Assembly: GCA_050014495.1 (NCBI GenBank)
Contig: JBEKDF010000043.1
Span: 1 to 20,020, forward strand
Source of the DNA: Candidatus Bathyarchaeia archaeon
GTDB taxonomy: Archaea; Thermoproteota; Bathyarchaeia; TCS64
DNA: 20,020 nt
Direction: 5' to 3'
A model generated the notes under the pieces. The model was not told the DNA's origin. It saw only the letters and a list, made by a program, of their open reading frames with translations, and searched no databases. A program made the position numbers and the translations under genes. Below, in pieces: positions 3,218 to 18,340 of the stretch (the first letter of the stretch is position 1; each line of letters starts with the position of its first letter).

Positions 3218-3242
3218 GGATATAATGCTAAAGAGTAGAACA
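3218..3242 (-). promoter_or_regulatory. GTTCTA-N5-TAGCATTA operator/TATA element, copy 1 (divergent from wHTH gene 3354)
   Basis: Minus strand TGTTCTACTCTTTAGCATTATATCC, 23/25 identical to 10543-10567. Confidence 0.65.
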
Positions 3243-3311
3243 TCTGCTCACGCTCTATTGAGGAGACAAGATTTGTTTCCTTCCCCATCTACGAACTCTA
3301 GATAAGGAACC

Positions 3312-3332
3312 TTTTCGAGAAGCCTCATAAAC
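3312..3332 (+). promoter_or_regulatory. Promoter of wHTH gene: quasi-palindrome TTTTCGAGAA followed by TATA-like TCATAAAC
   Basis: The TATA-like element is ~22-29 nt before ATG 3354. The same layout occurs upstream of the wHTH genes at 10414 and 17288. Confidence 0.55.
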
Positions 3333-3353
3333 ACTGAACATGAACCACTAGCC

Positions 3354-4103
3354 ATGAGCGAGGATGATACATACTCAACGATCTTCACAGCCCTAAAGCA
3401 TCCTATAAGAAGAAAGATACTGCGCATCCTCAACCAGCAACCGACGACATACACGGAGATCCTGAACCAGCTAAACATCGAAAACGGATTGCTCAACTAC
3501 CACCTCGACAACATGAAGGACCTCATCACCAAGGGCGAGGATGGAAAGTATAGCCTCTCGGATTTCGGTGGAGCCGCGATCAGTGTAACCGAGAAGGTTG
3601 AGGGTCCAGTAAAGAGTAGAAGTAACTTGTTAAGTGCTAATCAGATGATTAGAATAATCCTGATTCTCATAGTCGCGATCGCTTCCCTCTCAGTTTTGGG
3701 TTTCCTCCTCTACAATAAAAATACCATGCTTCTCAACCAGAACACTATGCTTCTGAATCAGATCGAAACAGCAAATGTGGTCTTAGGATCATCGTTTGGA
3801 GCGTCAATATCTAGGGTACAGGCAATCACAATCGCCCTACGGAATGGTGGCTGGAACAGCACAGGCCTGAAGGGAATGAAGGTCGATTCGAACCTTGCAT
3901 ATTGTTCTCCTGTTGATGGTAATCTTCACTTTGTTAATAGTACAGTCACTGACTTTTCGCCAAAGAGCGCTACCGGAGTGATGTATCGATACTTTTGGCT
4001 GGTTACTGTTGATCAATCTGTATGGTGCGGCTATATTCGTCCCACCGGATATTATGAGGTTGACGCCGTGACGGGTGAGATAATACCTCTCTTCAACTGG
4101 TGA
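3354..4103 (+). CDS. Membrane-anchored ArsR-like winged-HTH regulator with PepSY-like ectodomain (regulator A)
   Basis: IFTALKHPIRRKILRIL...TYTEILNQLNIENGLLNYHL...KYSLSDFG (ArsR/HTH_20-like). One TM (IILILIVAIASLSVLGFLLY), a short coiled coil, then ISRVQAITIA...YFWLVTV...YEVDAVTGEIIP. Confidence 0.88.
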   Translation: MSEDDTYSTIFTALKHPIRRKILRILNQQPTTYTEILNQLNIENGLLNYHLDNMKDLITKGEDGKYSLSDFGGAAISVTEKVEGPVKSRSNLLSANQMIRIILILIVAIASLSVLGFLLYNKNTMLLNQNTMLLNQIETANVVLGSSFGASISRVQAITIALRNGGWNSTGLKGMKVDSNLAYCSPVDGNLHFVNSTVTDFSPKSATGVMYRYFWLVTVDQSVWCGYIRPTGYYEVDAVTGEIIPLFNW

Positions 4104-4224
4104 TTTATCGAGAACCGCTAAGAGAGGCGCACGCATTCTTACCCCATGAAGCCACGAGTCTCGGGCTGGTCTGGTCGGTGCGCTATCCCATTCTAGTTGA
4201 TTACCCAGCGCACGAAGTTGTTTT

Positions 4225-4944
4225 CTAACTTTTGACTATTGTGTTTAGAAACCAGATTGAACCTGCAACTATGATTAACAGGATAATGATGACCCATTGG
4301 AGGTCTATTTGAGATGGAATTCCTGAGGACCCTGATTGCGTCTGCGCCGCTCCAGCCGCTTCCTCGGCGGCTCTCGCAGCCTCAACAGAAGTATCAGGGC
4401 TAGTGGGACCCCCACCGGTAGATATAGATGAGAGTGGATACACGGAAATCTCGCGAGTCAACTGCTTTACGCCGCCCTACCAGACCGTGATTGAGTAGTT
4501 ACCCGCTTCCCCCAAAACGAAGTTGAAGGTGAACCAGTTCGAGTCTCTGCTATATGAGACGATGCTCTCGTAGGAGGACTCCACACCTCCAATCTGGGCT
4601 GTGATTACAGCTGTGGCACTGTATACACCCGTCTGATTGGACCTAATTGGTCCCACCCTCATCGTGATGGGCTCTCCTGCGATGAATATGTCATCGCGGA
4701 AGTTTACGTAACTTAGGGATAGTTGAGGTTGAACACTTGGTTCGGTTGCATTCGAAACTGGTTTGGAGGCTGTGAGTGCTGGAAACGAACCGGTTTGGGC
4801 AGCCGTTGTTGAATTAGATGCTGGAGCTAGCTGAGCGTGAGCAGGGAGAGAAAAAGAGGTCACAGCGCATACTGTGACGATGAATATGATGATGGTGATG
4901 ATGATTAATCGCCTCAACGTATTTTCATCACTTTCTAATCTCAT
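4225..4944 (-). pseudogene. Secreted, C-terminally anchored Ig-like protein, paralogous to the C-half of 10690..11982; split by in-frame TAG
   Basis: ORFs 4477..4944 and 4225..4461 are one frame: ...GNYSITVW*GGVKQLTREI...STGGGP... aligns with ...GKYTVTIWQNGVKQLARKF...STGGGP... The TAG (4477-4479) sits at the paralog's CAG. Signal peptide, C-terminal TM and an upstream TATA (minus-strand TTATATA, 4966-4972) are present. Confidence 0.8.
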
Positions 4945-5165
4945 TATGTAACCTTTAACTCTATGTATATAATTTCTATTTATTGTAAACAGAGTAAGTT
5001 ATTATGTATACAATATTAATGGAAACATGCTTGCGTTTACTTTTCACACGCATTCTTTATGCGCGCGCATCCTCGCTCCGTTAAGCAATAAGGCTCAGGC
5101 TGGTCGTAGCGCATGCTTCCATGATCAATCGATAATCATAATTCCTCAAACATACAGACATAGTC

Positions 5166-5951
5166 ATGAATGGAGACTACGCGACCAAAGCAACGGCGAT
5201 AATCACATGCATCATCACCATCATCGGATTCATCATACTCTCCACAACCACCAACATTCAGAACCCCCAAACCCCAACAACAAGATCCGCCACGCCTTCC
5301 CTGACATTACTAGGTGCCGGGGCGCACTGGGCCGCAAACGGGGGTAATCGTACACTATATGTGAATTGGATCGACTACTCCCTAGCCCACCCGGGACACC
5401 CAACAGAGTTTAACCCGCCGCCAAACGCGACCAAGATAGTATCTTCAGTGATAAGCGCGTTGAATGATACCGGCCTGATAGTGAACCGTTCAGCAGAGAT
5501 ACCCAGCGACCTCTCCAGGTATAGCGTCGTGGTCATCGACTGCTACTGGGTGGGTAATCCCTCTGATTCACAAATATTGCGCAATTACATTTTCAATGGT
5601 GGAGGTGTGGTGTTGATTAGCGGGACACCGCCCTACTTCGTTAAAAATGATAAGACTTTGCACCCACTGCAGAACGATTTATCTGAGATAGCGGATTGGT
5701 TGGGTGCATCCTCCTACTACAATGTTGAGGGACAAGCGCAGATTACAGTCAACAATCCACTTGGCACTTCTCTTCACCTCAACCAGATGGTCTTCTCGGG
5801 GCCGTGGTCTCAGGCGGCGATATTTGATCTACGGCCAGGTGCGACGCCGGTAGCGGTCTAGGCGGAGGGAGGAATCTTTGCCTATACCTATCAATATGGC
5901 AGTGGAAGAGTGTACTACCAAGCTTCTCATGACTTCGAATCAAATTCTTAG
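5166..5951 (+). pseudogene. Membrane-anchored extracellular protein with class I glutamine amidotransferase-like (ThuA/DUF4350-type) fold; in-frame TAG near the C-terminus
   Basis: N-terminal TM and T/P linker, then DLSRYSVVVID...LRNYIFNGGGVVLISG. The frame continues past TAG 5859-5861 as ATPVAV*AEGGIFAYTYQYGSGRVYYQAS, the YGxGRV strand expected for this fold. Confidence 0.7.
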
Positions 5952-6088
5952 CTTGGGACATAATTGCATATGTCTACGCGTGCATCTGCTTTTCTCTGGT
6001 CTCTTGTCTTTTTTAGGAAAAGGTGGTTTAAGTCAAGAATGCTTCTCTATTTAATTGTTCGTGGAGTTCATCATTCTGGTACCCTTGA

Positions 6089-6421
6089 CTTCGAGGTTGG
6101 TATGGGGAATCTAGCGATGAAGCTCTACCCGATCTATTACTTGTGTTGGTGGGGAAACTATTCATCACGCTGCCTATTCAGAGGATCTTCGTCGTTGTGG
6201 ATAACTCGGTATCCGAGGAGGATGTTTACATGATCCTCGGCTCAGGTAGTTTAGGGCCGGCTATTATGTTTAAGCAGCCAGGTATGACAATTGCTTAGAT
6301 CGCCCTCACTCACATAGCCCAATCTGTGCAGCCCTACGTTGCGATCTATCTGGGTAACCTGGCGCTAGACATCGCTCTGGCAATATGCGTAATCGAAGTT
6401 TATTTGATCGAAAAAAGATGA
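6089..6421 (+). pseudogene. Possible degraded membrane-protein gene
   Basis: About 110-codon frame with one internal TAG (6296-6298) and a hydrophobic end (YVAIYLGNLALDIALAICVIEVYLIEKR*). No clear start and no family recognised. Confidence 0.25.
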
Positions 6422-6445
6422 ACTAGTTACCCATGCGCGCGCTCT

Positions 6446-8854
6446 TTATTTGATCATGCTCACGTCGAGGACGACGGATGACTTGACGCCGCCGGACGCC
6501 TTGAAGGCGAAGGTGTAGAAGCCGCTCCTGGGCACATTGAAGAGTTGCTCGTAGCTCTGAAGCCCCGACTCGCGGATGATGTAGTCGCTCGGCTTCGCGA
6601 GCTCGAAGTCGGTGACGACTGAGACATCAGGGTTGTAGGTAAATGTGTAGAGACCAAACTCTACAGGCTTAGTAGCGTTGTAGCTGATCTTTATGGTGGT
6701 GCCCATCTTCACGTAGGAGCTGTAGAACCGCTCAACGTTGCCATAGTACGACTCCCCATTCGCTGTGTAGTTGTCGAATCCGAGGTTAAACTTGACTGGG
6801 AAATACTCAATCGTGTCGTTTTCTAACCCCTGGTTATTGTATCCGCTCACGATGTCTGAGGACTGCTTCGCGTATAGTGGATAGGGTCCGACGATCTCGG
6901 CTGAGTTGACGTGGAATAGATCAACGATTACTCCGTTGAGGCTGATTTGGAATGGGAATCCGGTGACCCGGATGGTGGAGTTCCCCACGTAGGCGTTGTT
7001 CAGGTCGGTGAGCGTCACGTTGCCGAGCATCTTGTAGCCCTCAACTGGCACCGAGATGAACTCGCTTGGTGTTCCGAGGTGGAGGAGGAGCGACTTGGTG
7101 GAGTTCTCCAGCTTAAGCGTCATCACACTTTCTTTTGATATGGGTGATGTTGAGGAGCCGAGCCTCCCGGTGATTGTCGTCGTTCTGTTGATTGTTGGTG
7201 GGAATTGGAAGTCTTGCTTGACCTCATCTAGCTGTTTGTCCTCTATCATGGCTGCGGTTTGATCTGGGTAGCTTAGGCTACTACCATTCACGGTTCGGCA
7301 CCTGAAGGCGACTATCGCCGTCTCCGGCTGCGCTACATCGAAGCTGAAAGTATATTTCCCCGTAGACCGGACCGTGTATGAACTCTTGTAAGAGTACAAG
7401 TTGTTGTAGCTTAGGACTGTTCCCGAATCTGATGCGAAGCCGAAGATAACCTGTTCTGTGGAGTTGTATCCAAATTCAATGACCGTGCCCTCGCTGAGCG
7501 TCGCCTCGAAACTGATCGAGTGATCGGTCCAAGTGCTATTATACCAAGTTCTACCGACTACGAAGCTCCTCGGGGGAGACTCCAGGTAGAAGGTCTCCCA
7601 GCCCATGCCTCCGAAGGCGCCGCTGCTGCCGCCCGATTCTTTAAAGAGAACCCCAGTTGGATCCCTGCTCACCTTCCAGGTGTTGAATGTGACGTTTGCT
7701 TCGGGTGAGTTTATGGTGAATGCGAAGTCGTAGGTGCCACTCCTCAGGGCTATCAGGCCGCTTCTCATATGCGTGGTGTTATCCGAGTACCAAGTGTAGG
7801 GTGGCTGCCCCTGGGCGACGTAGTAGATGCTGAATCCAACCTGTTGGGTGGAGTTGAACTCGAATCCGATTGCATCTCCCTCGTTTAGGATTACTCTATA
7901 GTTGTGTATCCGGGTGCCATTCAGGGATTTTCCTCCCTCAACGATGAATCTCTGAGGCTGGCTAGCATTACCCAGGTCCTGTACAGTTTGGTTCGTGACT
8001 GTGGCGTTGACCGTGGGCTCGACGTAGATAAAGTTAAGCTGGTTTGTACCCAGGAAGCCGATCTCCATGTCGAAGTGGGGAATCTGAGACCCATTTTGAG
8101 GCGATAGAAAATCAGCAGGGTAAGGGACAGAAGTGTGGATCTCGAGTAGGAAGAACGCGGATCCGCCGGTCTTCAAGATCGCGGACGTAGCGTTCGCTGT
8201 CACGCTGAAACCCATCGGTACGCTAGTTACATTCAATGACACCGGAAGCGAGGCGTTGTAGTAGGGCCTAGCTATCACCCTCAACACAACTGATGTAGAT
8301 TCACCTGGTTTCACCCTTATTGGGGTGCTCGGGTCCCACGCGTTTGGGTGAAGTGACATCAGGTAATCGGGACCAACCGCCGTGACTCCGCCGCCGGTGC
8401 TTTCGAGGCTGAGCATGAGTTCCCCGGTCTGCGCGTCCACGACGTATCTCCCCGATCCTACATAATCTCCGGGAAGAGGTACGAGGTCTGTCTCGTATTC
8501 GATGAGCCAGTATGGTCTGACTTCTCCAACCGGTGTCGGTGAGACATATATTCGGTCGTGCATAGTTAACGGGTCCGAGTTCACTGTCTTTAGGTAGTTT
8601 GTCCAGTTTAGCGAAATATATTCTAGGTCGGCGCTTGCGGGTGAGGCGCTGCCACCTGGGATGCCATTGATTATTCTGGGATCGGTTTTATCGCTTTCTT
8701 TTAGTATCTCGATCGCCTGCGCCTCTGACACGTTTATCGATTGCGCTGGTTGGGTCTGTGATGCTGATTGGGTCTTTGCCACCGTGAGGAAGGCTGTGGT
8801 TGCGAGTATGATGGAGATCAGCACCGTTAGGGTGATGGTTGATGTTTTAGGCAT
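6446..8854 (-). CDS. Large secreted protein: PepSY-like domain, Ig-like domain and three GOLD-like beta-sandwich repeats
   Basis: 802 aa with signal/anchor. Residues ~40-280 are paralogous to 12022..12822 and 14856..15659 (LxYISLNW, PVGExRPYW, GSGRYVVDAQTGE, YNASLPVS, LKTGGS). Three repeats of G.xI.(F/I).(F/Y)N(S/A)T..V.F...(S/T)G.Y.F.F follow. Confidence 0.85.
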   Translation of the reverse strand: MPKTSTITLTVLISIILATTAFLTVAKTQSASQTQPAQSINVSEAQAIEILKESDKTDPRIINGIPGGSASPASADLEYISLNWTNYLKTVNSDPLTMHDRIYVSPTPVGEVRPYWLIEYETDLVPLPGDYVGSGRYVVDAQTGELMLSLESTGGGVTAVGPDYLMSLHPNAWDPSTPIRVKPGESTSVVLRVIARPYYNASLPVSLNVTSVPMGFSVTANATSAILKTGGSAFFLLEIHTSVPYPADFLSPQNGSQIPHFDMEIGFLGTNQLNFIYVEPTVNATVTNQTVQDLGNASQPQRFIVEGGKSLNGTRIHNYRVILNEGDAIGFEFNSTQQVGFSIYYVAQGQPPYTWYSDNTTHMRSGLIALRSGTYDFAFTINSPEANVTFNTWKVSRDPTGVLFKESGGSSGAFGGMGWETFYLESPPRSFVVGRTWYNSTWTDHSISFEATLSEGTVIEFGYNSTEQVIFGFASDSGTVLSYNNLYSYKSSYTVRSTGKYTFSFDVAQPETAIVAFRCRTVNGSSLSYPDQTAAMIEDKQLDEVKQDFQFPPTINRTTTITGRLGSSTSPISKESVMTLKLENSTKSLLLHLGTPSEFISVPVEGYKMLGNVTLTDLNNAYVGNSTIRVTGFPFQISLNGVIVDLFHVNSAEIVGPYPLYAKQSSDIVSGYNNQGLENDTIEYFPVKFNLGFDNYTANGESYYGNVERFYSSYVKMGTTIKISYNATKPVEFGLYTFTYNPDVSVVTDFELAKPSDYIIRESGLQSYEQLFNVPRSGFYTFAFKASGGVKSSVVLDVSMIK

Positions 8855-8880
8855 TAGTGATTACTGAGGGGCACCGGCGA

Positions 8881-8902
8881 CTTAATGCTAGTGTTTAGAA
8901 CA
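8881..8902 (-). promoter_or_regulatory. GTTCTA-N5-TAGCATTA operator/TATA element, copy 2
   Basis: Minus strand TGTTCTAAACACTAGCATTAAG, ending ~27 nt before ATG 8854. Confidence 0.65.
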
Positions 8903-8995
8903 GGGTACACGATACCTGAGTGGGCGGTAGAAGGCAACGATTCGGGCTCACATACAAGTTTTCTCGGGGAGATTCAGGGCTAGGAACCAAGAATC

Positions 8996-10414
8996 TCAGG
9001 ATTCTAGGTTTGACAATACTAGTATACCGTCAGCGCTTATCCCCAGGTCGTCCAAGGCCCACCTGGGGAAGACGAACACCTGCCCAGCATCATCGGGTGC
9101 CCGAACTGTAGCGGTGATGTTCACCGTCTCCCCTGTCCTCAGTGGCAAAGATCCAACTGGCTCGTAAGTTAGAACGTCTCTGAGCCTGTCCGCCATGTTC
9201 GACTGCACCTGATAGGGATCCCGGTACTGCGGGTCGATGATGAGCTTAGCATAAGGAGTATTCACATTGTATGAGATGAACGTCGCCGACACCGTGAAGG
9301 TGAGGTTGCCACCCCCCAAGATCTGTATCTGCTCCGGCAAATCAGGATACACAAGCTTCACGTAGCCATCAATACCCTGAGCAGCTGCCTTCGCAGCAGT
9401 GTCTACCTGAGACTCACTTAGCCCCAAGCCGCCTCGACCGTTCGTCGAATACACTTGGCCGGTGACCGGGTCAACCATGGCGTACATGTACATCCGCGTC
9501 CTGGCCCAGGGTGGATCGATATACGATGTGACCTGCCAGACGTACTTGTCAGTGTAGGGTGATTGAGGGTTGACATCGTATCCGAAGGCACCAACTATCT
9601 CCGCTGCCAACCCATAGGGGCTATCGAATAGACCAGCGTTGAGGGCGAGGCGCTTCGCTTCAGCCGCCGTGATGTTGTATGGCTGCAGGTTACCCTCCAC
9701 GGGAATTTCACCGGATTGCATTATGTACTCCGGATGGAACTCGAAGATGATTTTTTCATCCTTAGAGTAATTCCCCACCTCTATGCGGTAGCTGTATGTG
9801 ACTCTGGTCGCGTTTGGCTGATTGGCTGGATTTGACTCGACGGTGGGGTCGTGGAAGTACTTGTTGAAGTAGTCGACCCCGACTCTGTCTATGATGATGG
9901 TGGAGGCCCTTACAAGCGGGTTCTTCTCAAGGGTGGTCAGGGTCGAGTTGAGTCGACTCGAAGACGCTACGGAGGTGTTAAGTGCTGATTGCAGGTAGCT
10001 CTTCTCGATGCTCTGAGTGCTGTATCTTCCGGATAAGTCGAGGTACCTGTTGTTGAGCTCAATGAGCCCCAAGCCGGATACGACGAGGGCGACTACTAGG
10101 ACCGCTGCGAGCACCTTCATGATGGGCGAGGTGAAGGTTGATTTAACTACCTTACTCGGCTCCTCCACGCCTCTAATCAGGCCAGCCGTGGCCCTTCCGA
10201 AGTCGGATAACGTGTACTTCTCCTCGCCATTCTTGGTGATGAGTGAGCTCAGGGCCTCTAGGTGGTAGTTGAGGAGCCCGTTGTCTATGTTGAGGTCCCT
10301 CTGGATCTCCGTGTAGGTCGATGGCTTCTCGCCTATCATTCGTAGGATTCTTCGCCTTATGGGATGCTGTATTGCCTTGAAGATGGTGTTGTAGGTGTCC
10401 TCCTCGAAGCCCAT
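8996..10414 (-). CDS. Membrane-anchored ArsR-like winged-HTH regulator with large PepSY-like plus beta-rich ectodomain (regulator B)
   Basis: IFKAIQHPIRRRILRMI...NIDNGLLNYHL...KYTLSDFG, TM (VLAAVLVVALVVSGLGLI), coiled coil, then ITAAEAKRLA...YVWQVT...MVDPVTGQVY. Confidence 0.88.
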   Translation of the reverse strand: MGFEEDTYNTIFKAIQHPIRRRILRMIGEKPSTYTEIQRDLNIDNGLLNYHLEALSSLITKNGEEKYTLSDFGRATAGLIRGVEEPSKVVKSTFTSPIMKVLAAVLVVALVVSGLGLIELNNRYLDLSGRYSTQSIEKSYLQSALNTSVASSSRLNSTLTTLEKNPLVRASTIIIDRVGVDYFNKYFHDPTVESNPANQPNATRVTYSYRIEVGNYSKDEKIIFEFHPEYIMQSGEIPVEGNLQPYNITAAEAKRLALNAGLFDSPYGLAAEIVGAFGYDVNPQSPYTDKYVWQVTSYIDPPWARTRMYMYAMVDPVTGQVYSTNGRGGLGLSESQVDTAAKAAAQGIDGYVKLVYPDLPEQIQILGGGNLTFTVSATFISYNVNTPYAKLIIDPQYRDPYQVQSNMADRLRDVLTYEPVGSLPLRTGETVNITATVRAPDDAGQVFVFPRWALDDLGISADGILVLSNLES

Positions 10415-10440
10415 GGTCGGTCGATTGTACCTTACCCGGG

Positions 10441-10463
10441 CTTTAAAAAAGGGTTTTCGAGAA
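10441..10463 (-). promoter_or_regulatory. Promoter of regulator B: TTCTCGAAAA followed by TTTTTAAAG
   Basis: Minus strand TTCTCGAAAA-CCC-TTTTTTAAAG, with the TATA ~27-36 nt before ATG 10414. On the + strand the 10-mer (10454-10463) is identical to 3312-3321 although the gene is inverted. Confidence 0.6.
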
Positions 10464-10542
10464 ATCTTTTTCTCCTAAACTGTGCTATCAATTGAGTGTC
10501 GGGAGAAGAACTATTCTCTACGACGCGCTAAGTCATAACAAC

Positions 10543-10567
10543 TGTTCTATTCTCTAGCATTATATCC
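10543..10567 (+). promoter_or_regulatory. GTTCTA-N5-TAGCATTA operator/TATA element, copy 3 (divergent from regulator B)
   Basis: TGTTCTATTCTCTAGCATTATATCC. Confidence 0.65.
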
Positions 10568-10613
10568 GTCTAGGGTAGTAATGGATTAACAACAATAATG
10601 GTGGGAAAGACTC

Positions 10614-10658
10614 ATGAAACTTGTATACATCCTAATTATCATGCATGCGCGCGCGTAG
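10614..10658 (+). pseudogene. Signal-peptide stub truncated at a (GC)n junction
   Basis: MKLVYILIIM then HARA* where the GCGCGCGCG tract (10647-10655) begins. It lies downstream of motif copy 3. Confidence 0.35.
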
Positions 10659-10689
10659 TATGGCAGTCAATGCATAAAAGTGAAGCATT

Positions 10690-11982
10690 ATGATGAAATC
10701 ACAATTAGCCCTGTTGACGGCACTACTCTTCTTGGCCCTAACCCTCCCCACATCAAACGCCTCCTTAACCCGCTTAACCTACGATCAGATACAGTCACAG
10801 TCAGACCTCATCGTACTCGGAAAAGTGACAGGCTCAACAAGCCACACCGACTCGGGGAACGACACGGGTAACGTCCCCTACCTTATCAGACACGTGCAGG
10901 TGCAACAGTGCTACAAGGGAGGCGGGCCCCCGAGCATCGACGTGAAGGAGCTGGGGGGCGATCTGGGCAACGGGAACTCGATATGGGTCGAGGACCAGCC
11001 GGAGCTATCCGTCGGCACGACGTACGTCTTATTCCTCAAGGCTGACGGGTATGGCAACTACTACGTCTACGGGGGACCCGAAGGAGGCCTCGCCGTAGTA
11101 GATGGGGTTGCAAGCAACTCCATGTATACCCTTCAGGTCTCCGACTCCGGACTCATACCAGTCCCCGCATCCAACGTAAGCGTGACCGGATTCCACAATG
11201 AAACTTACCCGATAACCAACGGTCCAACAACCCTTGAGATCAAGGTCGGGGGAGGTACCAAGTTCGGATACTGGACTTTCCACGTCACATTCGACGGCGT
11301 TTCAGGCAAAGCCAAGGGATATGTCTCCGAGGACACGGTCAGTGATTTCGTGTACGGCTATGGTTCTTACGTCTCCTTCAGCCATAACTTCACGGTGCCC
11401 GGCGTCTACAGTGTCATCGTCGATGGAGTCAGCTGTGGTCAGCTGGAGGTGAAGCCGGGTGGTTCTCAGATGCATTTGACCTGGGCTGAGTTCTCCTCCG
11501 AGCCCCTCTTCGTCGATGAGCCGATAACTCTGCGTGTGGGGTCCATCCCATCGAACGTGACTGGGGAATATAGAGCCGTGGCGGTGGTAACCCCGAGGCT
11601 TGATGAGGCTGATCCCTACCTCGAGAGCTACGCCTCGTACAGTAGGGACTCACCCTGGTTCACCTTCAACTTCCTCATGAGGGAACCCGGTAAATACACC
11701 GTGACGATTTGGCAGAACGGCGTCAAGCAGCTGGCGAGGAAATTTATGGTTGTTAACTCGACATCGACTGGTGGTGGGCCTTTGAAGCCCGATTCCGCAG
11801 CCTCTCTCGCGGCTGAGCTCGCTGCGGGTAGGACGGCGAATACATCTACGCCTTATGTTTCTGATGTCGGAACACTTCCCGATTCTGCTACCCGGAATAA
11901 TTGGTATCCTTTGGAGGTCCTTCTGCTGCTCATGGTGGTTGCCGCCTCAGGGTTCCTCCTCTATAGAATAAGAGGGAAATAA
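10690..11982 (+). CDS. Secreted, C-terminally anchored multidomain surface protein (TIMP/NTR-like OB-type N-domain, two Ig-like domains)
   Basis: 430 aa with signal peptide; SDLIVLGKV...VQQCYKG...IDVKELGG...PELSVGTTYVLFL; FSHNFTVPGVYSVIVDG; C-terminal TM followed by RIRGK. Confidence 0.8.
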   Translation: MMKSQLALLTALLFLALTLPTSNASLTRLTYDQIQSQSDLIVLGKVTGSTSHTDSGNDTGNVPYLIRHVQVQQCYKGGGPPSIDVKELGGDLGNGNSIWVEDQPELSVGTTYVLFLKADGYGNYYVYGGPEGGLAVVDGVASNSMYTLQVSDSGLIPVPASNVSVTGFHNETYPITNGPTTLEIKVGGGTKFGYWTFHVTFDGVSGKAKGYVSEDTVSDFVYGYGSYVSFSHNFTVPGVYSVIVDGVSCGQLEVKPGGSQMHLTWAEFSSEPLFVDEPITLRVGSIPSNVTGEYRAVAVVTPRLDEADPYLESYASYSRDSPWFTFNFLMREPGKYTVTIWQNGVKQLARKFMVVNSTSTGGGPLKPDSAASLAAELAAGRTANTSTPYVSDVGTLPDSATRNNWYPLEVLLLLMVVAASGFLLYRIRGK

Positions 11983-12021
11983 GACCACTAGCTACGCTCC
12001 CAAGAAATGAGTTTGTTCACA

Positions 12022-12822
12022 TTACCCGCCTGGGACGTAGATGTTGGCGTATTCATCCTCGCCAGCCAGAGTGAACTTAACCCTGACCGCGTAGGACCCT
12101 TTGCTAGACGTCGTCTCCAACGGGATAAAGGGGCCCATAGCGTAGAAAGCAAGCCCAATGTTGAAGCGAACGGCTGCGGAGCCACCAGTCCTAAGAACCA
12201 GAGAGGTGACGTTCTGGGACACGTAGTAACCAACCGGAACCTCAACCACCGTTACGGAAACTGGCAGGGAAGCATCGTAGGAAGACTTCGCATCTATCCT
12301 AATATCGACATGAGCCACATCGGAGGGATCCTTAATGACCAAGGGATTCCTTGGGTCTGAGCCGTTGCTGATCGATGAGACGCCGAAGTATGGGGTAAAT
12401 ATCGTTGAAAATCCGTGGAACTGCTCCATGGCAGCCATGAGCTCCCCCGTATCCGCGTCGACGATGTATCTACCGGATCCAAGGTTGATTACATTAGGCT
12501 GACCATAATCCATGATCCAGTATGGCTTGTCTTCGCCGACTTGGGTCGGGGAGATGTATAGGTGGTTGAAGTTCCCGGCGTTTCGTAGGTACTCGTCCCA
12601 GTTGAGTGATATGTACTGAAGCTCAGCGCTCTCAAGGTGCTCGTCGCTTCTGCCAACCATATATGGATCCGCCTTTGAACTCGTCTCAACGATTTTCATT
12701 GCCTGCTCCTTCGATATCTTCACGTCGCTGCTCGGCATTTTCATGGTTAATGCTGCGAATGTTGTGACTGCTAGTATGCATGATACGATGGCTACTAGCT
12801 GCGTTTGTCTGGGGGGCGTCAA
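12022..12822 (-). CDS. Secreted PepSY-like plus Ig-like protein (paralog family of 6446..8854)
   Basis: 266 aa, TTG start; ISKEQAMKIV, LQYISLNW, VGEDKPYW, GSGRYIVDADTGE, YDASLPVS, LRTGGS. Confidence 0.85.
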   Translation of the reverse strand: MTPPRQTQLVAIVSCILAVTTFAALTMKMPSSDVKISKEQAMKIVETSSKADPYMVGRSDEHLESAELQYISLNWDEYLRNAGNFNHLYISPTQVGEDKPYWIMDYGQPNVINLGSGRYIVDADTGELMAAMEQFHGFSTIFTPYFGVSSISNGSDPRNPLVIKDPSDVAHVDIRIDAKSSYDASLPVSVTVVEVPVGYYVSQNVTSLVLRTGGSAAVRFNIGLAFYAMGPFIPLETTSSKGSYAVRVKFTLAGEDEYANIYVPGG

Positions 12823-13252
12823 TTAGATTACCAACTACAGGTACAATCAAAATGTTATTTAGACCTTAGTCTCAGGATTTACAACTGTAGAAAAAGCAAA
12901 ATCTAATAGATTGAAACTTCCGTAATCGTGCGCAATATTTAAGAAATATAAAATCAGTCTTCAAAGTTTAATGTCTTGTCCTTACTACATCCAGGTAGAG
13001 TGCTACGCAGATGCACTCAACAACGATCTCAAACCCTCCAATATCCCAAAGAACCTCAGCCCTCTCTGTAAAACTGATGACGAGTGGCAAAACTGTGAAC
13101 GATACAATAAGTCAGAGCTGGGCAAAGACCCGGATGAACCATAAAACCCTGGGGTGTTACACACGCATAGAATACAAAGGAAATCGGGGCTCGTATGCAT
13201 TCACTATGGAAAAGCGTAAAAATCATCCAGATTGCTAACTCATTCGACGCCA

Positions 13253-14518
13253 ATGATCAAGAAGAGGATCCTTATCACAGCCTTGGTCATAGTATTAGTC
13301 TCCCTACCTCTCGCTTTCCTACTACCCCCATACATGCGGTCGCAAGCTCAGACACAAGCCTACGCCGCATCGGACCAGAAAGCCGCAAACGCCGACCCCG
13401 AGATCGTGAATGCCAACACCCGCTTCGCGGTCTCGATGATCCAGCAACTAGCCAAGGAGGATCCTGGGAGCAACATATTGATCTCTCCACTCAGCGTCTC
13501 CACCGCCCTAACCATGGCGTACAACGGCGCCGGAGGAACGACGAAGGAGTCGATGGCTAGAACTCTTGGGGTAGAGAATATGAGCCTCAGCAGATTGGAT
13601 AACGGATACCTTAACCTGCTTCAGAGCCTCCAATCCGTCGACGACACGATCCAACTCAGCATAGCCGACTCGATGCTGGTGAAAGACGTGTTCGCGCCTA
13701 AGGTAAAGCAGAGTTTCACCGACAACGTCACGAATTACTTCATGGGTGAGGTCTCCATCCGCCCATTCGACTCCACCACGGTGACCTACATAAATAACTG
13801 GGTGAGCGAGAAGACGAATGGCGTGGTCCAGAAGATGCTGGACGCGATCGACCCGAAAGACGTAGTGATCCTGCTGAATACCATCTACTTCAAGGGAGCC
13901 TGGTCAAACATGTTCAACCCATCCTGGACACGCCCCGGCGTCTTCAAGCTGAGCGACGGATCAACGGCCACCGTCAGCTACATGAACAAGGAAGCGAGTT
14001 ACGGGTACCTCAACGACAGCGAGGCCCAAGCCATCAGACTACCCTACGGTAGGGGCAAGGTCGCGATGTATGTCTTTGTGCCCCGCTCATCGTTGGACTC
14101 CTTCCTTGATGGTTTGACTCGGGGGAGGCTCGACGGCTACTTCACACGCTTCCAGCAGAAGGATCTGGAGCTTAGTATGCCAAGGTTCAACGTGACTTAT
14201 GGGACGAGGAGCCTGAATGACGCGTTGAAGAGTCTCGGTATGGGTGTGGCCTTCGATTGGATGAATGCGGACTTCAGCGGTATCGCGTCGGGGCCGCCGA
14301 ATCTGGCCATAAGTCAGGTTGATCATAAGGCTTACGTCGGCGTCGGTGAGGGGGGGACGGTGGCCGCCGCGGCTACGTCGGTTGAGATTATTCAGACGGC
14401 CTCTAGGCCTGGGTTTGTGGTGGATAGGCCGTTTCTGTTCGTCATCAGGGACGACCGCTCCGGGTCGATACTCTTCATAGGAGAGATAGAGAATCCCCTG
14501 CAGACGACCTCTCCGTAA
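13253..14518 (+). CDS. Secreted or membrane-anchored serpin (serine protease inhibitor, MEROPS I4)
   Basis: NILISPLSVSTALTMAYNGAGGTT, INNWVSEKTNG, LLNTIYFKGAW, RLPY, MPRF, hinge EGGTVAAAAT and FVVDRPFLFVIRD...ILFIG. ATG 13253 gives the signal MIKKRILITALVIVLVSLPLAFLL; the ORF track starts at TTG 13232. Confidence 0.96.
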   Translation: MIKKRILITALVIVLVSLPLAFLLPPYMRSQAQTQAYAASDQKAANADPEIVNANTRFAVSMIQQLAKEDPGSNILISPLSVSTALTMAYNGAGGTTKESMARTLGVENMSLSRLDNGYLNLLQSLQSVDDTIQLSIADSMLVKDVFAPKVKQSFTDNVTNYFMGEVSIRPFDSTTVTYINNWVSEKTNGVVQKMLDAIDPKDVVILLNTIYFKGAWSNMFNPSWTRPGVFKLSDGSTATVSYMNKEASYGYLNDSEAQAIRLPYGRGKVAMYVFVPRSSLDSFLDGLTRGRLDGYFTRFQQKDLELSMPRFNVTYGTRSLNDALKSLGMGVAFDWMNADFSGIASGPPNLAISQVDHKAYVGVGEGGTVAAAATSVEIIQTASRPGFVVDRPFLFVIRDDRSGSILFIGEIENPLQTTSP

Positions 14519-14745
14519 TGTACTTTGTTGGGGATAGGATGCTTCTCCAAAAAGATACTCGCCGCCAGTTACGCGAATGGGCAATCCTCTTCGAGGATTA
14601 TCCTGGGCTTGGTAAGACTCTGCTGGCCAAGGCATTCGCGAAGGCGACTGGATGTGAATTTAGTCGTGTAGAACGAGGAAAGGAACACTAAGCCTGTGAG
14701 TCTCACCCTCAATGGTGACCTGTCGCTCCTCCCAAATGGGCTTCA
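14518..14745. pseudogene. moxR: Scrambled MoxR-family AAA+ ATPase relic (two fragments on opposite strands)
   Basis: + strand 14518-14670 reads YFVGDRMLLQK...ILFEDYPGLGKTLLAKAFAKATGCEFSRV (Walker A). The minus strand 14731-14669 reads EERQVTIEGETHRLSVPFLVL, the segment that precedes ATQNP in MoxR. Confidence 0.8.
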
Positions 14746-14809
14746 TCGGCTCCGGTGGGAAAACGATTATCACTGGGCTGATCACGCGCTCCTCACTCTT
14801 AATGGACTC

Positions 14810-14830
14810 GTTCTAATCACTAGCATTAAA
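14810..14830 (+). promoter_or_regulatory. GTTCTA-N5-TAGCATTA operator/TATA element, copy 4
   Basis: GTTCTAATCACTAGCATTAAA, ending 26 nt before ATG 14856. Confidence 0.65.
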
Positions 14831-14855
14831 CATAGGTCAATTGATAGAATGAACC

Positions 14856-15659
14856 ATGCTCTTTAGTTCCAAAACCACGATCACAGCCTTGATCTCAGTC
14901 ATCCTCGCGACCTCCGCCTTCATTTTAGTGGCTACAAATCAACAAGCATTCGGGGCAAAGATAAACGAGGAACAGGCAATCAACATACTCAAATCAAGCA
15001 ATAAAACTAATCACAGAATACTAAACGGCACCGTCACGACCCTAACCACCGACTTACAATACGTCGCACTCAACTGGACAAGTTACCTGAATAACACTGG
15101 AGCTGAACCCCATAGCCAAATATATGTCCCAGCCACCCCAGTAGGCGAATCCAGACCATACTGGTTCATTCACATTGAGTCTAGTTGGTACTACGGTTGG
15201 AGCAGTGGTTCTGGTACATACATCGTTGATGCGCAGAGTGGGGAGGTGATGCTCTCACTCGAAAGTATCGGTGGCGGAGTCTCGGCTGTTGGTCCAGATT
15301 ACCTGATCTCCTTCAACCCTCCTGCATATGATCCTGGCCCTCCACTTAGTGTTAAGCCTGGTGTGCTAACTCCAATCACGTTGACTTTGACTGCCCCATC
15401 GTACTACAATGCGTCGCTTCCCGTTTCGATTAGGGTAACTGATGTTCCGTTGGGCTATAGCATTGGGCCGAAGAACGCGACAGCTATCTTGACCACCGGC
15501 GGTTCAGTTTCCTTCGCTTTATTGGTTTTCCAACCGGTTCCGCATCCCGCTGACTTTTTGCCGCCGCCGACTGATCCTTATCCTCACTTTAACGTTGAGA
15601 TCAGCTTCCTTAGTCACACCGACTCTCATCCAATTTACATCGTTTCATCAAACAGGTAA
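14856..15659 (+). CDS. Secreted PepSY-like plus Ig-like protein (closest paralog of the N-third of 6446..8854)
   Basis: 267 aa; INEEQAINILK, LQYVALNW, PVGESRPYW, GSGTYIVDAQSGEVMLSLESIGGGVSAVGPDYL, YYNASLPVS, PADFL. Confidence 0.87.
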   Translation: MLFSSKTTITALISVILATSAFILVATNQQAFGAKINEEQAINILKSSNKTNHRILNGTVTTLTTDLQYVALNWTSYLNNTGAEPHSQIYVPATPVGESRPYWFIHIESSWYYGWSSGSGTYIVDAQSGEVMLSLESIGGGVSAVGPDYLISFNPPAYDPGPPLSVKPGVLTPITLTLTAPSYYNASLPVSIRVTDVPLGYSIGPKNATAILTTGGSVSFALLVFQPVPHPADFLPPPTDPYPHFNVEISFLSHTDSHPIYIVSSNR

Positions 15660-15691
15660 CAGCGACTCATTTCGCCAACCCCAAACCAATC

Positions 15692-15780
15692 CGCGCGCGC
15701 TTAAGGCCCTCGTCCTCGTTGGCGCGCGCTTAACGAGTGTCTCCTTCTCCTCCAGGGCTTCGAATGTGATTTGTGCGCGC
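15692..15780. repeat. Cluster of (GC)n tracts, including direct repeat GCGCGCGCTTAA x2
   Basis: GCGCGCGCTTAA at 15693-15704 and 15722-15733. GCGCGC 15775-15780 is the left target-site copy of the IS. Confidence 0.8.
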
Positions 15781-17065
15781 CGGCTTGTCCCGAAATTCAT
15801 CCAGGCTAGAATAAGCTTATTTTGATAGTTGAGGGTCTCGTCCTCTTGATGGTCTGTCCAACCGTAGGAGGTGAGTTCACTTAGGACAAGATGAACACGA
15901 GACCCTCGAAACACTCTTCAAAAACATCGACTTAAGCATTGCTGAACAGCAACTACTCGGCTGCTACCACACAGCCGGCCCCGGCAGGCCACCGAGGAAC
16001 CCCCTAGGCATACTCAGAGCCCTCCTAGTCATGCGATTGAAGGGAATCCGCAGCCTACGGGAGATGACCAGGATCCTCGACGTAGACAGACGCCTCAGAA
16101 AGCTCTGCCTCATCAAACCCAGCGAGAGGGGATACACGAGGTCAGTAATCAGCCGCTTCACCCACAGGGTCGGAGCCGACCGGATTCAGCTCATCATAGA
16201 GGAGAAGGTTGTGCGGCTCCTAAGGAGGGCTAAAGTGGAGGAGGTGGACGTCATCTTAGACGCCAGCTTCGTCAAGGCTTGGAGCAAAAGGCACCCCGAC
16301 GACGGTAGGATAGGCTTCTCAGACTCTGACGCGAAGGTCGGGAGGAACGGTCGAGGCTACGACCTCGGCTACAAGCTCCACGTCTCCGTGGATCAGAGGA
16401 GGATCCTGCCTCTGGCCGAGGTGATCGCTCCCGCCAACGAGAACGAGAAGAGGCACGCGCCGTCCCTGGTCGAGAGGACCCGGATGGTCCTAGGGAGGGC
16501 CGATGCTAGGCTCAGGAGCCTGATCGCGGACAGCCAGTACAGCAGCGCCAAGGTGAGAGGCCTGGTGGAGACTGCTGTGATCCCTTATACGGCAAGCCAG
16601 ATGCGTGGCGTGGATGTGCTGAGGGTGGATCGGAGGTTCAGGACACATGGCCCCGAGGTAGAGGTGGTTGAGTACCGTAGGCGGCCGGCGGTGGAGGCTT
16701 CGTTTGCCTTCATGAAGACCCAGTTCGGGTTGACTGTGAATAAGGTGAGGGGTCTGCTGGGTGTGTCGGTGTACGCTCTTCTTAGTGTGCTGTGCTGTGT
16801 GCTGAACAGGGAGGCGGCGGAGAACCTGGGTAGGCCGGAGAAGGCCATCTCGCCGACGTTCTTCAACGTCTAAGGGTTCGCGTCTACGGTCGGCGTATGG
16901 GCCGTGGTTAGTGGGTGCTGGGCTTGTCTGTGTCGTTTTTCAGTCGTTTTGCTGGTGGTGTGTTTTGTCTTTGGGGCTTTTTCGGTGTTGGGTCGTCGTT
17001 GGGGTTGATTGTTGGGGTTTTGTTGGTGATTGCTGTTCTAAAGTATTTGATTTAGGGACGAGCCA
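15781..17065 (+). mobile_element. Complete 1285-bp IS5/IS1182-like insertion sequence with 6-bp GCGCGC target-site duplication
   Basis: Left end CGGCTTGTCCCGAAATT and right end (reverse complement) TGGCTCGTCCCTAAATC. GCGCGC lies immediately outside both ends (15775-15780, 17066-17071). Single transposase ORF. Confidence 0.88.
15881..16873 (+). CDS. DDE transposase with DUF772/InsH-like N-domain, ~330 aa; start codon apparently non-canonical (TTA)
   Basis: The open frame extends 50 codons upstream of ATG 16031 (LGQDEHETLETLFKNIDLS...GPGRPPRNPLGILRALLVM). Catalytic motifs ILDASF, GYKLHVSVD, LIADSQYS, YRRRPAVEASFAFMK. SD GGAGGTGA 15867-15874 sits 6 nt before TTA 15881. Confidence 0.88.
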   Translation, partial: LGQDEHETLETLFKNIDLSIAEQQLLGCYHTAGPGRPPRNPLGILRALLVMRLKGIRSLREMTRILDVDRRLRKLCLIKPSERGYTRSVISRFTHRVGADRIQLIIEEKVVRLLRRAKVEEVDVILDASFVKAWSKRHPDDGRIGFSDSDAKVGRNGRGYDLGYKLHVSVDQRRILPLAEVIAPANENEKRHAPSLVERTRMVLGRADARLRSLIADSQYSSAKVRGLVETAVIPYTASQMRGVDVLRVDRRFRTHGPEVEVVEYRRRPAVEASFAFMKTQFGLTVNKVRGLLGVSVYALLSVLCCVLNREAAENLGRPEKAISPTFFNV

Positions 17066-17236
17066 GCGCGCATTCTTTGGATTGGCTATATTCTATTATT
17101 CAAGAAGACGCGCCTACGCTAAATACTAAATAAATACGGGCTGGTGCCCCTCTCCATCTTTTTTCATAGTCACATACTCAAACACGAGTGGAGAAGATTT
17201 CTTACCTAAATACTTGGATAGTCTAGGTAATTTTCC

Positions 17237-17287: not shown

Positions 17288-18340
17288 TTGAGCGAAGAGG
17301 ATGACACATACTCAACCATGTTCACTGCGCTCAAACATCCAATTCGGAGGAAGATACTACGAATCGTCAGCCAGTCACCAGTCACCTACACAACGATACT
17401 GAACCAGCTTGGAATCGACAACGGTCTACTAAACTACCACCTCGAAAACATGAGAGCCCTTCTTGCCAAGGATGATGAAGAGCGATACCATCTATCGGAA
17501 TTCGGGAAAGCGTCCATCAACTTAATTCAAAGGGTTGAGGAGATCCCCGCAGCTCAGAAGCCCATGGTTCTTGGGTTGAATACAAAACAGGTGACATCGG
17601 TCCTGCTGATTTTGATAATCGGGCTAGCATCTGTCTCCACGCTACTGGGAGTGAGCTATAACGACCATCAACAATTGGGCAATGTGCTTGCCCAGACCCG
17701 CTCCCAACTCGACTTAACCAATCAGCGATTGCAAAACATCTCCTACCTCCAGACACTCACAAACATCACCAAGTCACCGACCGCGATTGTGCCATCATAC
17801 TTCATGACATTCAACTACGATGAAGGACCACCTCTGGTATGGGATCAGCAAACGTCCATCATCGTCTACTATGTGCCCGTCGATGGCTCGGTTACTCGCC
17901 TCGAACTCATTGTACCCTCTTCAAACAGATACACCCTCGAGCTAACCCTCCAGGATGGTAACGCCTGGAAGAATGAGACCTGGGTGAGGCTAGGAACCGT
18001 CGACCAGGTGTACGGCAAGAACCAGAACGCGTCGTTAGGTTCGAGGGTCGTCTGGCAGGCACCTATAGAGTGGTCGATGAACGTCTCCGATTCAGGAGTC
18101 TACGTGACGCCTCCTCTGAGTAGAGGCTGGCATACGTTGAGCATGTTTGGTCCGATAACCCTCCTCGACAAGCTTGTGGCAAGGGGGGAAGACGACTACT
18201 ACAGGTATCCGATGTTTCACGGCTCTGTAGAGGATCCTTCAGCTTCTGTAAAGATGTATAGCTACAGCGTCGCCATCACCGCTTACGTTCAGAAGAATAA
18301 CGATCCCATCTTCTTCGCTGTGGAAAACCGGAGGTATTAG
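17288..18340 (+). CDS. Membrane-anchored ArsR-like winged-HTH regulator with uncharacterised beta-rich ectodomain (regulator C)
   Basis: MFTALKHPIRRKILRIV...GIDNGLLNYHL...RYHLSEFG, TM, coiled coil; ectodomain motifs SII.YYVP.DGS, TLQ.GNAW.N.T, VWQ.PI.WS, GW.T.SMFGP, FFAV. Confidence 0.88.
   Translation: MSEEDDTYSTMFTALKHPIRRKILRIVSQSPVTYTTILNQLGIDNGLLNYHLENMRALLAKDDEERYHLSEFGKASINLIQRVEEIPAAQKPMVLGLNTKQVTSVLLILIIGLASVSTLLGVSYNDHQQLGNVLAQTRSQLDLTNQRLQNISYLQTLTNITKSPTAIVPSYFMTFNYDEGPPLVWDQQTSIIVYYVPVDGSVTRLELIVPSSNRYTLELTLQDGNAWKNETWVRLGTVDQVYGKNQNASLGSRVVWQAPIEWSMNVSDSGVYVTPPLSRGWHTLSMFGPITLLDKLVARGEDDYYRYPMFHGSVEDPSASVKMYSYSVAITAYVQKNNDPIFFAVENRRY

What the first reader, a model, noticed from the sequence alone, without database searches (positions are those of the whole stretch)
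3218..14830. Four-copy promoter element GTTCTA-N5-TAGCATTA(A/T): candidate regulon operator fused to the TATA box
Seen: TGTTCTA-CTCTT-TAGCATTATA (3242-3221, minus), TGTTCTA-AACAC-TAGCATTAAG (8902-8881, minus), TGTTCTA-TTCTC-TAGCATTATA (10543-10564, plus), CGTTCTA-ATCAC-TAGCATTAAA (14809-14830, plus). Fourteen positions are invariant, the 5-nt spacer varies, and the CTA-N5-TAG core is dyad symmetric. Two copies end 26-27 nt before the ATG of secreted PepSY-like genes. The other two point away from regulators A and B, 110-155 nt upstream of them, in otherwise dissimilar intergenic DNA. Inference: a binding site over the BRE position, most simply for the adjacent wHTH-TM proteins, linking receptors to secreted outputs.
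Basis: partly seen in the sequence, partly recalled or inferred. Interest (0 to 1): 0.8.

Follow-up and report, generated by a model that had tools for sequence, protein, structure and literature searches.

The report
Phylum-wide archaeal membrane-anchored secretome regulator
The four repeats are real copies of a promoter element conserved across many Thermoproteota archaea in front of exported-protein genes, and they are likely read not by the neighbouring regulators but by a membrane-anchored DNA-binding protein encoded elsewhere in the genome, which would give these archaea a cell-envelope gene-control system that our literature searches did not find described.

Summary
Observation confirmed: four exact copies, 0.03 expected. 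The element is a dyad, GTTCTA-N5-TAG(AAC), whose right half lies in the BRE slot and fuses with a weak TATA box. This Bathyarchaeia genome has about 19 sites; 11 of 12 chosen intact downstream genes encode signal/anchor proteins. Regulators A/B/C (DUF7347) have their own dyad, GAGAA-N6-TTCTC, and were not found in many genomes that carry the motif. The likely binder is a 143-aa wHTH plus membrane-hairpin protein outside the window (G000 C11:29282-29710). The motif follows its gene in 59 of 76 loci, never precedes it (0 of 76), and changes sequence in paralog clades with a changed recognition helix. Weak core promoters, fixed register and upstream-only, helically phased extra sites favour activation; repression remains possible. 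At window copies 1 and 3 the A/B dyad sits in helical phase, suggesting co-regulation. No binding, TSS or complex data were obtained. Ten paper searches and six look-ups of this scan's earlier notes found no description of this system.

The parts
3221..3242 (-). Operator-TATA element, copy 1 (dyad 3241-3225, TATA-like ATTATATC 3226-3219); orphan, no intact downstream gene
8881..8902 (-). Operator-TATA element, copy 2; heads the 802-aa exported protein, leaderless spacing
10543..10564 (+). Operator-TATA element, copy 3; original target truncated, 430-aa ORF 125 nt downstream
14809..14830 (+). Operator-TATA element, copy 4; heads the 267-aa exported protein
3265..3280 (.). Distal A-type dyad (GAGAA-N6-TTCTC family, 2 mismatches), 23 nt from copy 1
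3301..3316 (.). Proximal A-type dyad (2 mismatches) next to the BRE/TATA of gene A
10459..10474 (.). Proximal B-type dyad, perfect GAGAA-N6-TTCTC, next to the BRE/TATA of gene B
10503..10518 (.). Distal B-type dyad, perfect GAGAA-N6-TTCTC, 25 nt upstream of copy 3 (about 4 helical turns centre to centre)
17191..17206 (.). Degenerate dyad of the same family upstream of gene C (2 mismatches)
3354..4103 (+). Regulator A, 249 aa: DUF7347/ArsR-like wHTH, one TM, extracellular domain
8996..10414 (-). Regulator B, 472 aa, same family
17288..18340 (+). Regulator C, 350 aa, same family; no copy of the motif nearby
6446..8854 (-). Target of copy 2: 802-aa protein with N-terminal signal/anchor; N-terminal part resembles the 267-aa protein
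14856..15659 (+). Target of copy 4: 267-aa signal/anchor protein, predicted alpha/beta domain plus Ig-like domain
10598..10654 (+). Truncated 5' end of a secreted-protein gene (paralog of G000 C1:196618), broken at a GCGCGC tract
10690..11982 (+). 430-aa protein with N-terminal signal and C-terminal anchor; possible present-day target of copy 3 through a leader

Best explanation
The four copies belong to a promoter element conserved across many Thermoproteota families that is likely the operator of a single-copy, predicted membrane-anchored winged-helix regulator encoded outside this window (G000 C11:29282-29710), which likely activates a set of genes for exported proteins. Shown: the dyad GTTCTA-N5-TAG(AAC) lies at about -47 to -31 from leaderless start codons, with its right half in the BRE slot and fused to a weak TATA box. 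It heads the gene for a small two-TM partner directly after the regulator gene, and elsewhere heads genes for serpin, SIMPL, beta-propeller, PrcB_C, ICMT-like and uncharacterised secreted proteins. Inferred: a regulator dimer binds both half-sites (binder identity about 0.8) and makes an otherwise weak promoter fire by standing in for the TFB-BRE contact, helped by extra dyads 2-5 helical turns upstream (activation about 0.7 given that binder). The induced partner would feed back on the regulator in the membrane (untested). At window copies 1 and 3 the local receptors A and B would bind their own GAGAA-N6-TTCTC dyad on the same DNA face and gate the response, in the manner of ToxR and TcpP (about 0.45). 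The signal is likely envelope or extracellular-protein stress (inferred from the target list only).
For: Synteny: motif within 200 nt after the regulator stop in 24 of 30 and 59 of 76 loci, 0 of 76 upstream (4 further loci were truncated). In the 17 loci scoring under 15 bits, 15 show no partner gene and 2 have a weaker site. Several other Thermoproteota families keep regulator, motif and partner, often with the left half-site overlapping the regulator's stop codon. Phyletic match: regulator in 24 of 24 family genomes and 89 of 151 phylum genomes. Eight regulator-bearing families give 95 motif hits against 15 controls (59 genomes); four families with none or almost none give 20 against 56 (42 genomes) (hand tally). 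Co-variation: loci with helix SPS(V/I/L) mostly have GTTC(T/G)(A/G)..TAG/TGG; in the SP(A/T)LA clade 6 of 8 loci have GTWCAA-N5-TTG/TTT-N-ATTAWR in the same register and 2 have no site; the TPSLA clade has TTCAA-N5-TTGAA arrays. A PWM trained only on relatives' regulator-adjacent sites puts all four window copies among the 19 G000 sites at 18 bits or more, against 1 for the reversed control. For activation: median BRE/TATA scores -1.2/3.1 for 19 sites against 3.0/6.6 for 46 tRNA promoters (p=2e-7, 4e-6); among 167 sites, 77 extra dyads lie upstream at gaps 4-6, 14-16, 25-26, 35, 46 and only 1 downstream (Rayleigh p=4e-4 at 10.5 bp). Archaeal activators acting on weak BREs are documented (PMC5937170, passages and Discussion read), and upstream versus downstream site position separates activation from repression for OxsR (PMC9426492, passages). 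Targets: 11 of 12 chosen intact ORFs have an N-terminal hydrophobic segment against 14% background; Pfam families.
Against: No binding, expression or TSS data. A dimer covering the BRE slot would be expected to block TFB, the textbook signature of repression (PMC5937170 Introduction); known activators bind upstream of the BRE. The helix/half-site co-variation rests on about two evolutionary events, and many loci had no site by the strict pattern (28 of 65 SPSVA, 13 of 22 SPSIA). The second TM helix is seen in the AlphaFold model but did not pass the hydropathy cut-off. tRNA promoters are an unusually strong comparison set, and A/B/C-type promoters also score low. Only about 2 of the 4 window copies head an intact gene at leaderless distance. 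Some phylum-level hits are in coding or non-secreted contexts. The A/B phasing is p=0.003 on 8 thinned values but may reflect only two or three indel events.
Confidence: 0.6

Rival explanations
1. Same regulator and regulon, but the protein is a repressor that occludes TFB by sitting on the BRE and is removed by proteolysis or by sequestration on its induced partner.
For: The right half-site lies exactly in the BRE slot and keeps dyad symmetry when specificity changes. The wHTH scores just above the LexA_DNA_bind cut-off, and LexA is a repressor. Regulators bound within the promoter act as repressors (PMC5937170 Introduction).
Against: Core promoters are weak; extra sites are upstream-only and phased, 77 against 1; the register is fixed across unrelated targets and paralog clades; no site upstream of the regulator gene in 76 loci, although some paralogs in one family do carry it.
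Confidence: 0.23
2. One reading: the adjacent DUF7347 wHTH-TM receptors A/B/C bind the motif and switch on neighbouring secreted genes.
For: Two of four window copies are divergent from A and B; the same divergent layout recurs in relatives (5 of 30 loci had the motif nearby; 5 of 21; 4 of 7 composite hits).
Against: A/B/C genes have a separate conserved dyad. They were not found in genomes that carry the motif, such as G001, G004, G005, G007, G008, G016, G018, G020, G024 (incomplete MAGs, one query). Their DNA-binding domain is not detectably similar to that of the C11 regulator (E=0.25). Most G000 sites have no such gene within 3.5 kb.
Confidence: 0.07
3. The element is a variant core promoter read by one of several TFB/TBP paralogs, with no dedicated DNA-binding regulator.
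For: G000 encodes 7 TFB and 3 TBP genes; the element is fused to TATA at fixed spacing.
Against: Dyad symmetry, phased upstream repeats of the dyad, linkage to the regulator gene and sequence change with the regulator's helix are not expected of a TFB element. A special TFB acting as partner of the regulator is not excluded.
Confidence: 0.06
4. The element is the end of a mobile repeat, a recombination site, or a terminator of the upstream gene.
For: The contig is a rearranged island with a transposase and gene fragments; the element often follows a stop codon.
Against: No shared flanks beyond paralogous genes; fixed distance to start codons; the site is lost when the partner gene, not the regulator, is absent; it is conserved at an orthologous locus across families.
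Confidence: 0.02

Closest known systems
TFB-RF1 (PF1088) of Pyrococcus furiosus (PMC5937170; passages and Discussion read)
   Same: Archaeal regulator with a spaced palindrome (TCTG-N5-CAGA; ours contains TCT-N7-AGA), fixed distance to a weak BRE, a small regulon of membrane/transport genes, and a membrane-protein gene linked to the regulator.
   Different: TFB-RF1 footprints -47 to -70 from the start codon, upstream of the BRE; our dyad lies at about -47 to -31, over the BRE. Our regulator carries predicted TM helices and precedes its partner gene. Sequence homology was not tested.
Transmembrane transcription regulators: ToxR/ToxS, TcpP/TcpH, CadC; archaeal ArnR (PMC10269533 and PMC6598108, passages read)
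   Same: N-terminal wHTH tethered to the membrane, a linked membrane partner, and possible co-operation of two membrane regulators on one promoter, as ToxR and TcpP do at toxT.
   Different: No OmpR-type domain and no extracytoplasmic sensor domain in the C11 regulator; the partner has its own operator-controlled promoter; the machinery is archaeal TBP/TFB.
LexA repressor (SOS box tCGAAC-N4-GNNCGa, PMC9380542, passages read)
   Same: Weak LexA_DNA_bind match; GTTC/GAAC-type half-sites; tandem sites create a GAAC-N4-GTTC junction.
   Different: No peptidase domain; TIGR00498 18.5 bits against cut-off 110.95; half-sites face the other way in the minimal site; targets are exported proteins, not DNA repair genes.
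ECF sigma / anti-sigma and Psp/Cpx envelope-stress systems (recalled; PMC11237479 passages read for Psp)
   Same: Functional logic: membrane-linked factor, induced small membrane partner, regulon of exported proteins.
   Different: No sigma or PspA/PspF domain was detected; the passages read in PMC11237479 do not describe this gene pair.

Membership tests
Transmembrane transcription regulator (TTR, Demey 2023) | DNA-binding domain plus at least one predicted TM region in one protein | tested here: met
   wHTH at residues 1-75; TM 93-111 by hydropathy; second long helix in the model
Transmembrane transcription regulator (TTR, Demey 2023) | Binds DNA and regulates transcription while membrane-anchored | not testable with these tools
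   needs EMSA, fractionation and transcription assays
ToxR/TcpP-type co-component system | OmpR-type wHTH with single TM and extracytoplasmic sensor domain | tested here: not met
   Pfam gives LexA/ArsR/TrmB-type HTH only, and the protein ends after the membrane helices
ToxR/TcpP-type co-component system | Adjacent membrane partner that binds the regulator | tested here: inconclusive
LexA repressor | LexA DNA-binding domain | tested here: inconclusive
   PF01726 24.1 bits against cut-off 23.7; Foldseek top hit 3jsp E=0.02; ArsR Z 10.0 and LexA Z 9.1 are tied
LexA repressor | C-terminal autocleaving peptidase domain / full-length model | tested here: not met
   TIGR00498 18.5 against 110.95 bits; the C-terminal half is hydrophobic helices
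TFB-RF1-type activator | Target promoters with weak BRE | tested here: met
   BRE score median -1.2 against 3.0 for tRNA promoters; weaker support
TFB-RF1-type activator | Operator located upstream of the BRE | tested here: not met
   right half-site occupies the BRE slot
TFB-RF1-type activator | Sequence homology to PF1088 | not tested
ECF sigma factor | Sigma region 2 and 4 domains | tested here: not met
   no such Pfam or NCBIfam hit; the analogy is functional only
PepSY-domain protein (targets of copies 2 and 4) | PepSY domain by profile or fold | tested here: inconclusive
   no Pfam hit for window targets, E=0.022 for a paralog; whole-model Foldseek dominated by Ig-like hits; N-domain not folded alone
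Mobile repeat / MITE end | Shared flanking sequence between copies | tested here: not met
   100-nt flanks align only between paralogous genes or overlapping sites

The most novel reading that the evidence does not exclude
A membrane-anchored, sigma-like promoter-specificity factor of Thermoproteota: the wHTH dimer replaces TFB's BRE recognition at a dedicated promoter class (GTTCTA-N5-TAG-N-ATTA) and, with its induced two-TM partner as anti-factor, runs an ancestral envelope-stress regulon. Paralogs re-specify the promoter class by changing one helix, and lineage-specific DUF7347 receptors plug into helically phased upstream slots to make signal-specific AND gates.
Probability: 0.3. Interest if true: 0.88.

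Novelty: new variant of a known kind. Interest (0 to 1): 0.72.

Why it matters
Few archaeal activators and, as far as the TTR survey's table shows, one archaeal membrane-bound regulator (ArnR) are characterised (PMC10269533, passages). This gives a named regulator, operator, partner and regulon conserved from Bathyarchaeia to other Thermoproteota, including homologs labelled Ca. Caldarchaeum, Aigarchaeota and Nitrososphaerales. It makes testable how archaea, which lack sigma factors, control envelope and secreted proteins. It also poses a mechanistic puzzle, an operator lying on the BRE of weak promoters, that can be settled in vitro with a 75-aa domain. The paralog series offers a natural helix-to-half-site code.

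Tried and rejected
Complex prediction of regulator with partner was not available, so their binding is open. No RNA holder was listed for window 6400-15700, so no TSS test was made and read laying was not used. PDB sequence search gave only spurious PUF-repeat hits. A phage DNA search with one distant locus found nothing. A TATA-free dyad scan at 2 mismatches was not enriched over the reversed control (54 against 51 non-coding at gap 5), so the TATA part carries much of the signal; 6 of its 7 near-perfect gap-5 hits are TATA-fused or upstream auxiliary sites, and C32:19211 is unexplained. A start-codon-based promoter model was noisy and partly circular and was replaced by tRNA promoters. No beta-propeller gene was found in G000 (96% complete), although it is a common target in relatives. 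Literature: 10 searches, judged from listings and abstract starts; PMC13384398 (Caulobacter HigX) abstract only, unrelated; no supplements were read, and the TTR survey's supplementary files may list these proteins. Subscription papers are not in the library. Six look-ups of this scan's earlier notes returned other Bathyarchaeia operators or nothing; none concerns this motif.
Full report
Observation. The pattern GTTCTA-N5-TAGCATTAW occurs four times in the window, all exact, against 0.03 expected. The window is the whole contig C43 of a 3.1-Mb genome, G000. Its regulator orthologs come almost entirely from records titled Bathyarchaeota or Bathyarchaeia, so I take it to be a Bathyarchaeia genome.

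Genome-wide. G000 has 6 exact copies, 13 at one mismatch and 29 at two. An iterated PWM gives 17 sites at 22.9 bits or more, all non-coding, and none at 20 bits for the reversed matrix. A PWM trained only on 36 distinct sites from related loci finds 19 sites at 18 bits or more (control 1), including all four window copies; 9 of the 19 have an ATG 27-28 nt after the final TTA, against 7.4% background. That is the TATA-to-ATG distance of leaderless genes in this genome (peak -30 to -28). Of 12 sites I chose because they have an intact downstream ORF, 11 head a protein with an N-terminal hydrophobic segment, against 14% of long ORFs. They include a serpin and a SIMPL protein. Relatives add beta-propeller, SIMPL, PrcB_C, FtsX-like and ICMT-like proteins. 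Flanks are unrelated except between paralogs. The element is therefore a promoter element, not a mobile repeat.

The window copies. Copies 2 and 4 head related exported proteins of 802 and 267 aa. The 267-aa protein folds as an alpha/beta domain plus an Ig-like domain; PepSY is unproven. Copy 1 has no intact target. Copy 3 heads a gene stump whose intact paralog is on C1, broken at a GCGCGC tract, with a 430-aa exported protein 125 nt downstream. The window's serpin and 266-aa paralog have no site.

Which protein reads it. A, B and C are DUF7347/ArsR-like wHTH proteins with one TM. Their family was found in 11 of 17 same-genus genomes and their close subfamily in 19 of 71 family genomes, while the motif at one mismatch is in 17 of 17 and 24 of 24. 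Their upstream regions share another dyad, GAGAA-N6-TTCTC, perfect in 10 of 19 regions and usually present twice, once next to the BRE. In contrast, a 143-aa wHTH protein with a membrane hairpin, at G000 C11:29282-29710, is present in 24 of 24 family genomes and 89 of 151 phylum genomes. The motif follows its stop codon in 24 of 30 and 59 of 76 loci and never precedes the gene (0 of 76). There it heads a conserved 85-220-aa protein with two terminal TM segments, single-copy in G000. Where the site is missing, the partner gene is usually missing too. The trio persists in several other Thermoproteota families, often with the left half-site overlapping the regulator's own stop codon; there the right half reads TAGAA or TAGAT, showing the underlying palindrome GTTCTA-N5-TAGAAC. 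By family, motif counts exceed controls where the regulator occurs (95 against 15) and not where it is absent or nearly so (20 against 56) (hand tally of 12 families, others left out).

Co-variation. Paralogs with a changed recognition helix carry changed dyads in the same position. The SP(A/T)LA clade has GTWCAA-N5-TTG/TTT-N-ATTAWR in 6 of 8 loci; the TPSLA clade, including G000's second paralog on C4, has TTCAA-N5-TTGAA arrays with 21-bp period. The SP(A/T)LA rows form one clade with moderate support, so this is one event, and TPSLA a second. It is the strongest sign that this family binds the element and that both half-sites are read. The wHTH is a generic fold with a slight LexA lean; the protein is not a LexA.

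Activator or repressor. A promoter model from tRNA genes places the conserved TAG in the BRE slot and shows both BRE and TATA to be weak at the 19 sites. Across 167 distinct sites, extra dyads lie upstream at gaps of 4-6, 14-16, 25-26, 35 and 46 nt (77 cases) and once downstream, a 10-10.5-bp ladder. Weak promoters, fixed register, upstream-only phased sites and no autoregulation of the main gene fit an activator, by analogy with TFB-RF1 and OxsR. Against this, a protein on the BRE should block TFB. I favour activation by replacing the BRE contact, with repression as the main rival. Neither is shown.

Role of A and B. In 11 of 12 cases where an A/B-type gene is divergent from a motif site, its distal dyad lies 13-15, 23-26 or 35-36 nt from the motif, close to 3, 4 or 5 helical turns centre to centre (p=0.003 on 8 thinned values; possibly only two or three independent indels). 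A metagenome scan for both elements together gave 7 loci, 4 with this divergent layout (one near-identical to the window, two duplicates of each other); the 3 others had gaps of 36, 29 and 19. This suggests that A and B co-regulate copies 1 and 3 through their own operator, like ToxR and TcpP at toxT (PMC6598108). It is an inference.

Comparison and novelty. The regulator meets the sequence definition of a transmembrane transcription regulator (PMC10269533). It is not a ToxR-, LexA- or sigma-family member, and it differs from TFB-RF1 in operator position. Ten paper searches and six look-ups of earlier scan notes found no description of this family, operator or regulon; supplements and subscription papers were not seen. 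I rate it a new variant of a known kind, interest 0.72, with a 0.3 chance of the stronger reading that it is a sigma-like promoter-specificity system.

Noticed in passing
G000 genome-wide; window 299, 334, 378, 1238, 2734, 2828, 2866, 5061, 6435, 10647, 15693, 15722, 15775, 17066, 19900: GCGCGC occurs 1470 times in G000, 81% in non-coding DNA that makes up 23% of the genome (other GC hexamers 11-17%). Tracts peak 0-50 nt after stop codons, vary from 0 to 23 per 10 kb among contigs, and mark at least one gene truncation (10647). They may be deletion or recombination scars, or a terminator or chromatin signal.
   Followed up: partly
G000 C4:56960-57406 (-), L246: Second paralog of the regulator family, followed by its own TTCAA-N5-TTGAA array (21-bp period) and a 390-aa signal-peptide gene; same layout in G002, G013, G015, G016.
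   Followed up: partly
L168, L169, L186, L188, L190, L191, L192, L200: The operator's left half overlaps the regulator's last codons and stop, so the conserved C-terminal residues and the operator share DNA.
   Followed up: partly
L254, L255, L300, L301: In some lineages regulator paralogs lie directly behind a motif site or downstream of a motif-controlled beta-propeller gene, suggesting feedback or cascades.
   Followed up: no
window 18343-19290 (+): Fourth DUF7347-type paralog lacking the first part of the wHTH, directly after gene C.
   Followed up: no
window 14543-14690 (+): Short fragment with a Walker A-like motif resembling a MoxR AAA ATPase (family name recalled) between the serpin and copy 4.
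   Followed up: no
window 4477-4944 (-) and 10690-11982 (+): The 155-aa ORF shares an 82-aa block (48% identity) with the 430-aa protein; it looks like an internally deleted paralog.
   Followed up: partly
window 482-1245 (+): InlB B-repeat-like protein (Flg_new_2) followed, after its stop, by a stretch that by eye resembles a cupredoxin domain (recalled, untested) and ends at a GCGCGC tract.
   Followed up: no
window 16031-16873 (+): DDE transposase (PF01609/DUF772) within the island.
   Followed up: no
G000 C1, C3, C5, C9, C10, C38, C40, C51: Seven TFB and three TBP genes; C10 and C51 each carry both. Contamination is 7.5%, so some may be foreign.
   Followed up: no
L124: A record titled Patescibacteria carries the archaeal regulator, motif and partner locus and nests among Bathyarchaeia in the tree; probably mis-binned.
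   Followed up: no
G000 C32:19211: A perfect GTTCTA-N5-TAGAAC dyad with no TATA-fused partner site or clear target.
   Followed up: partly
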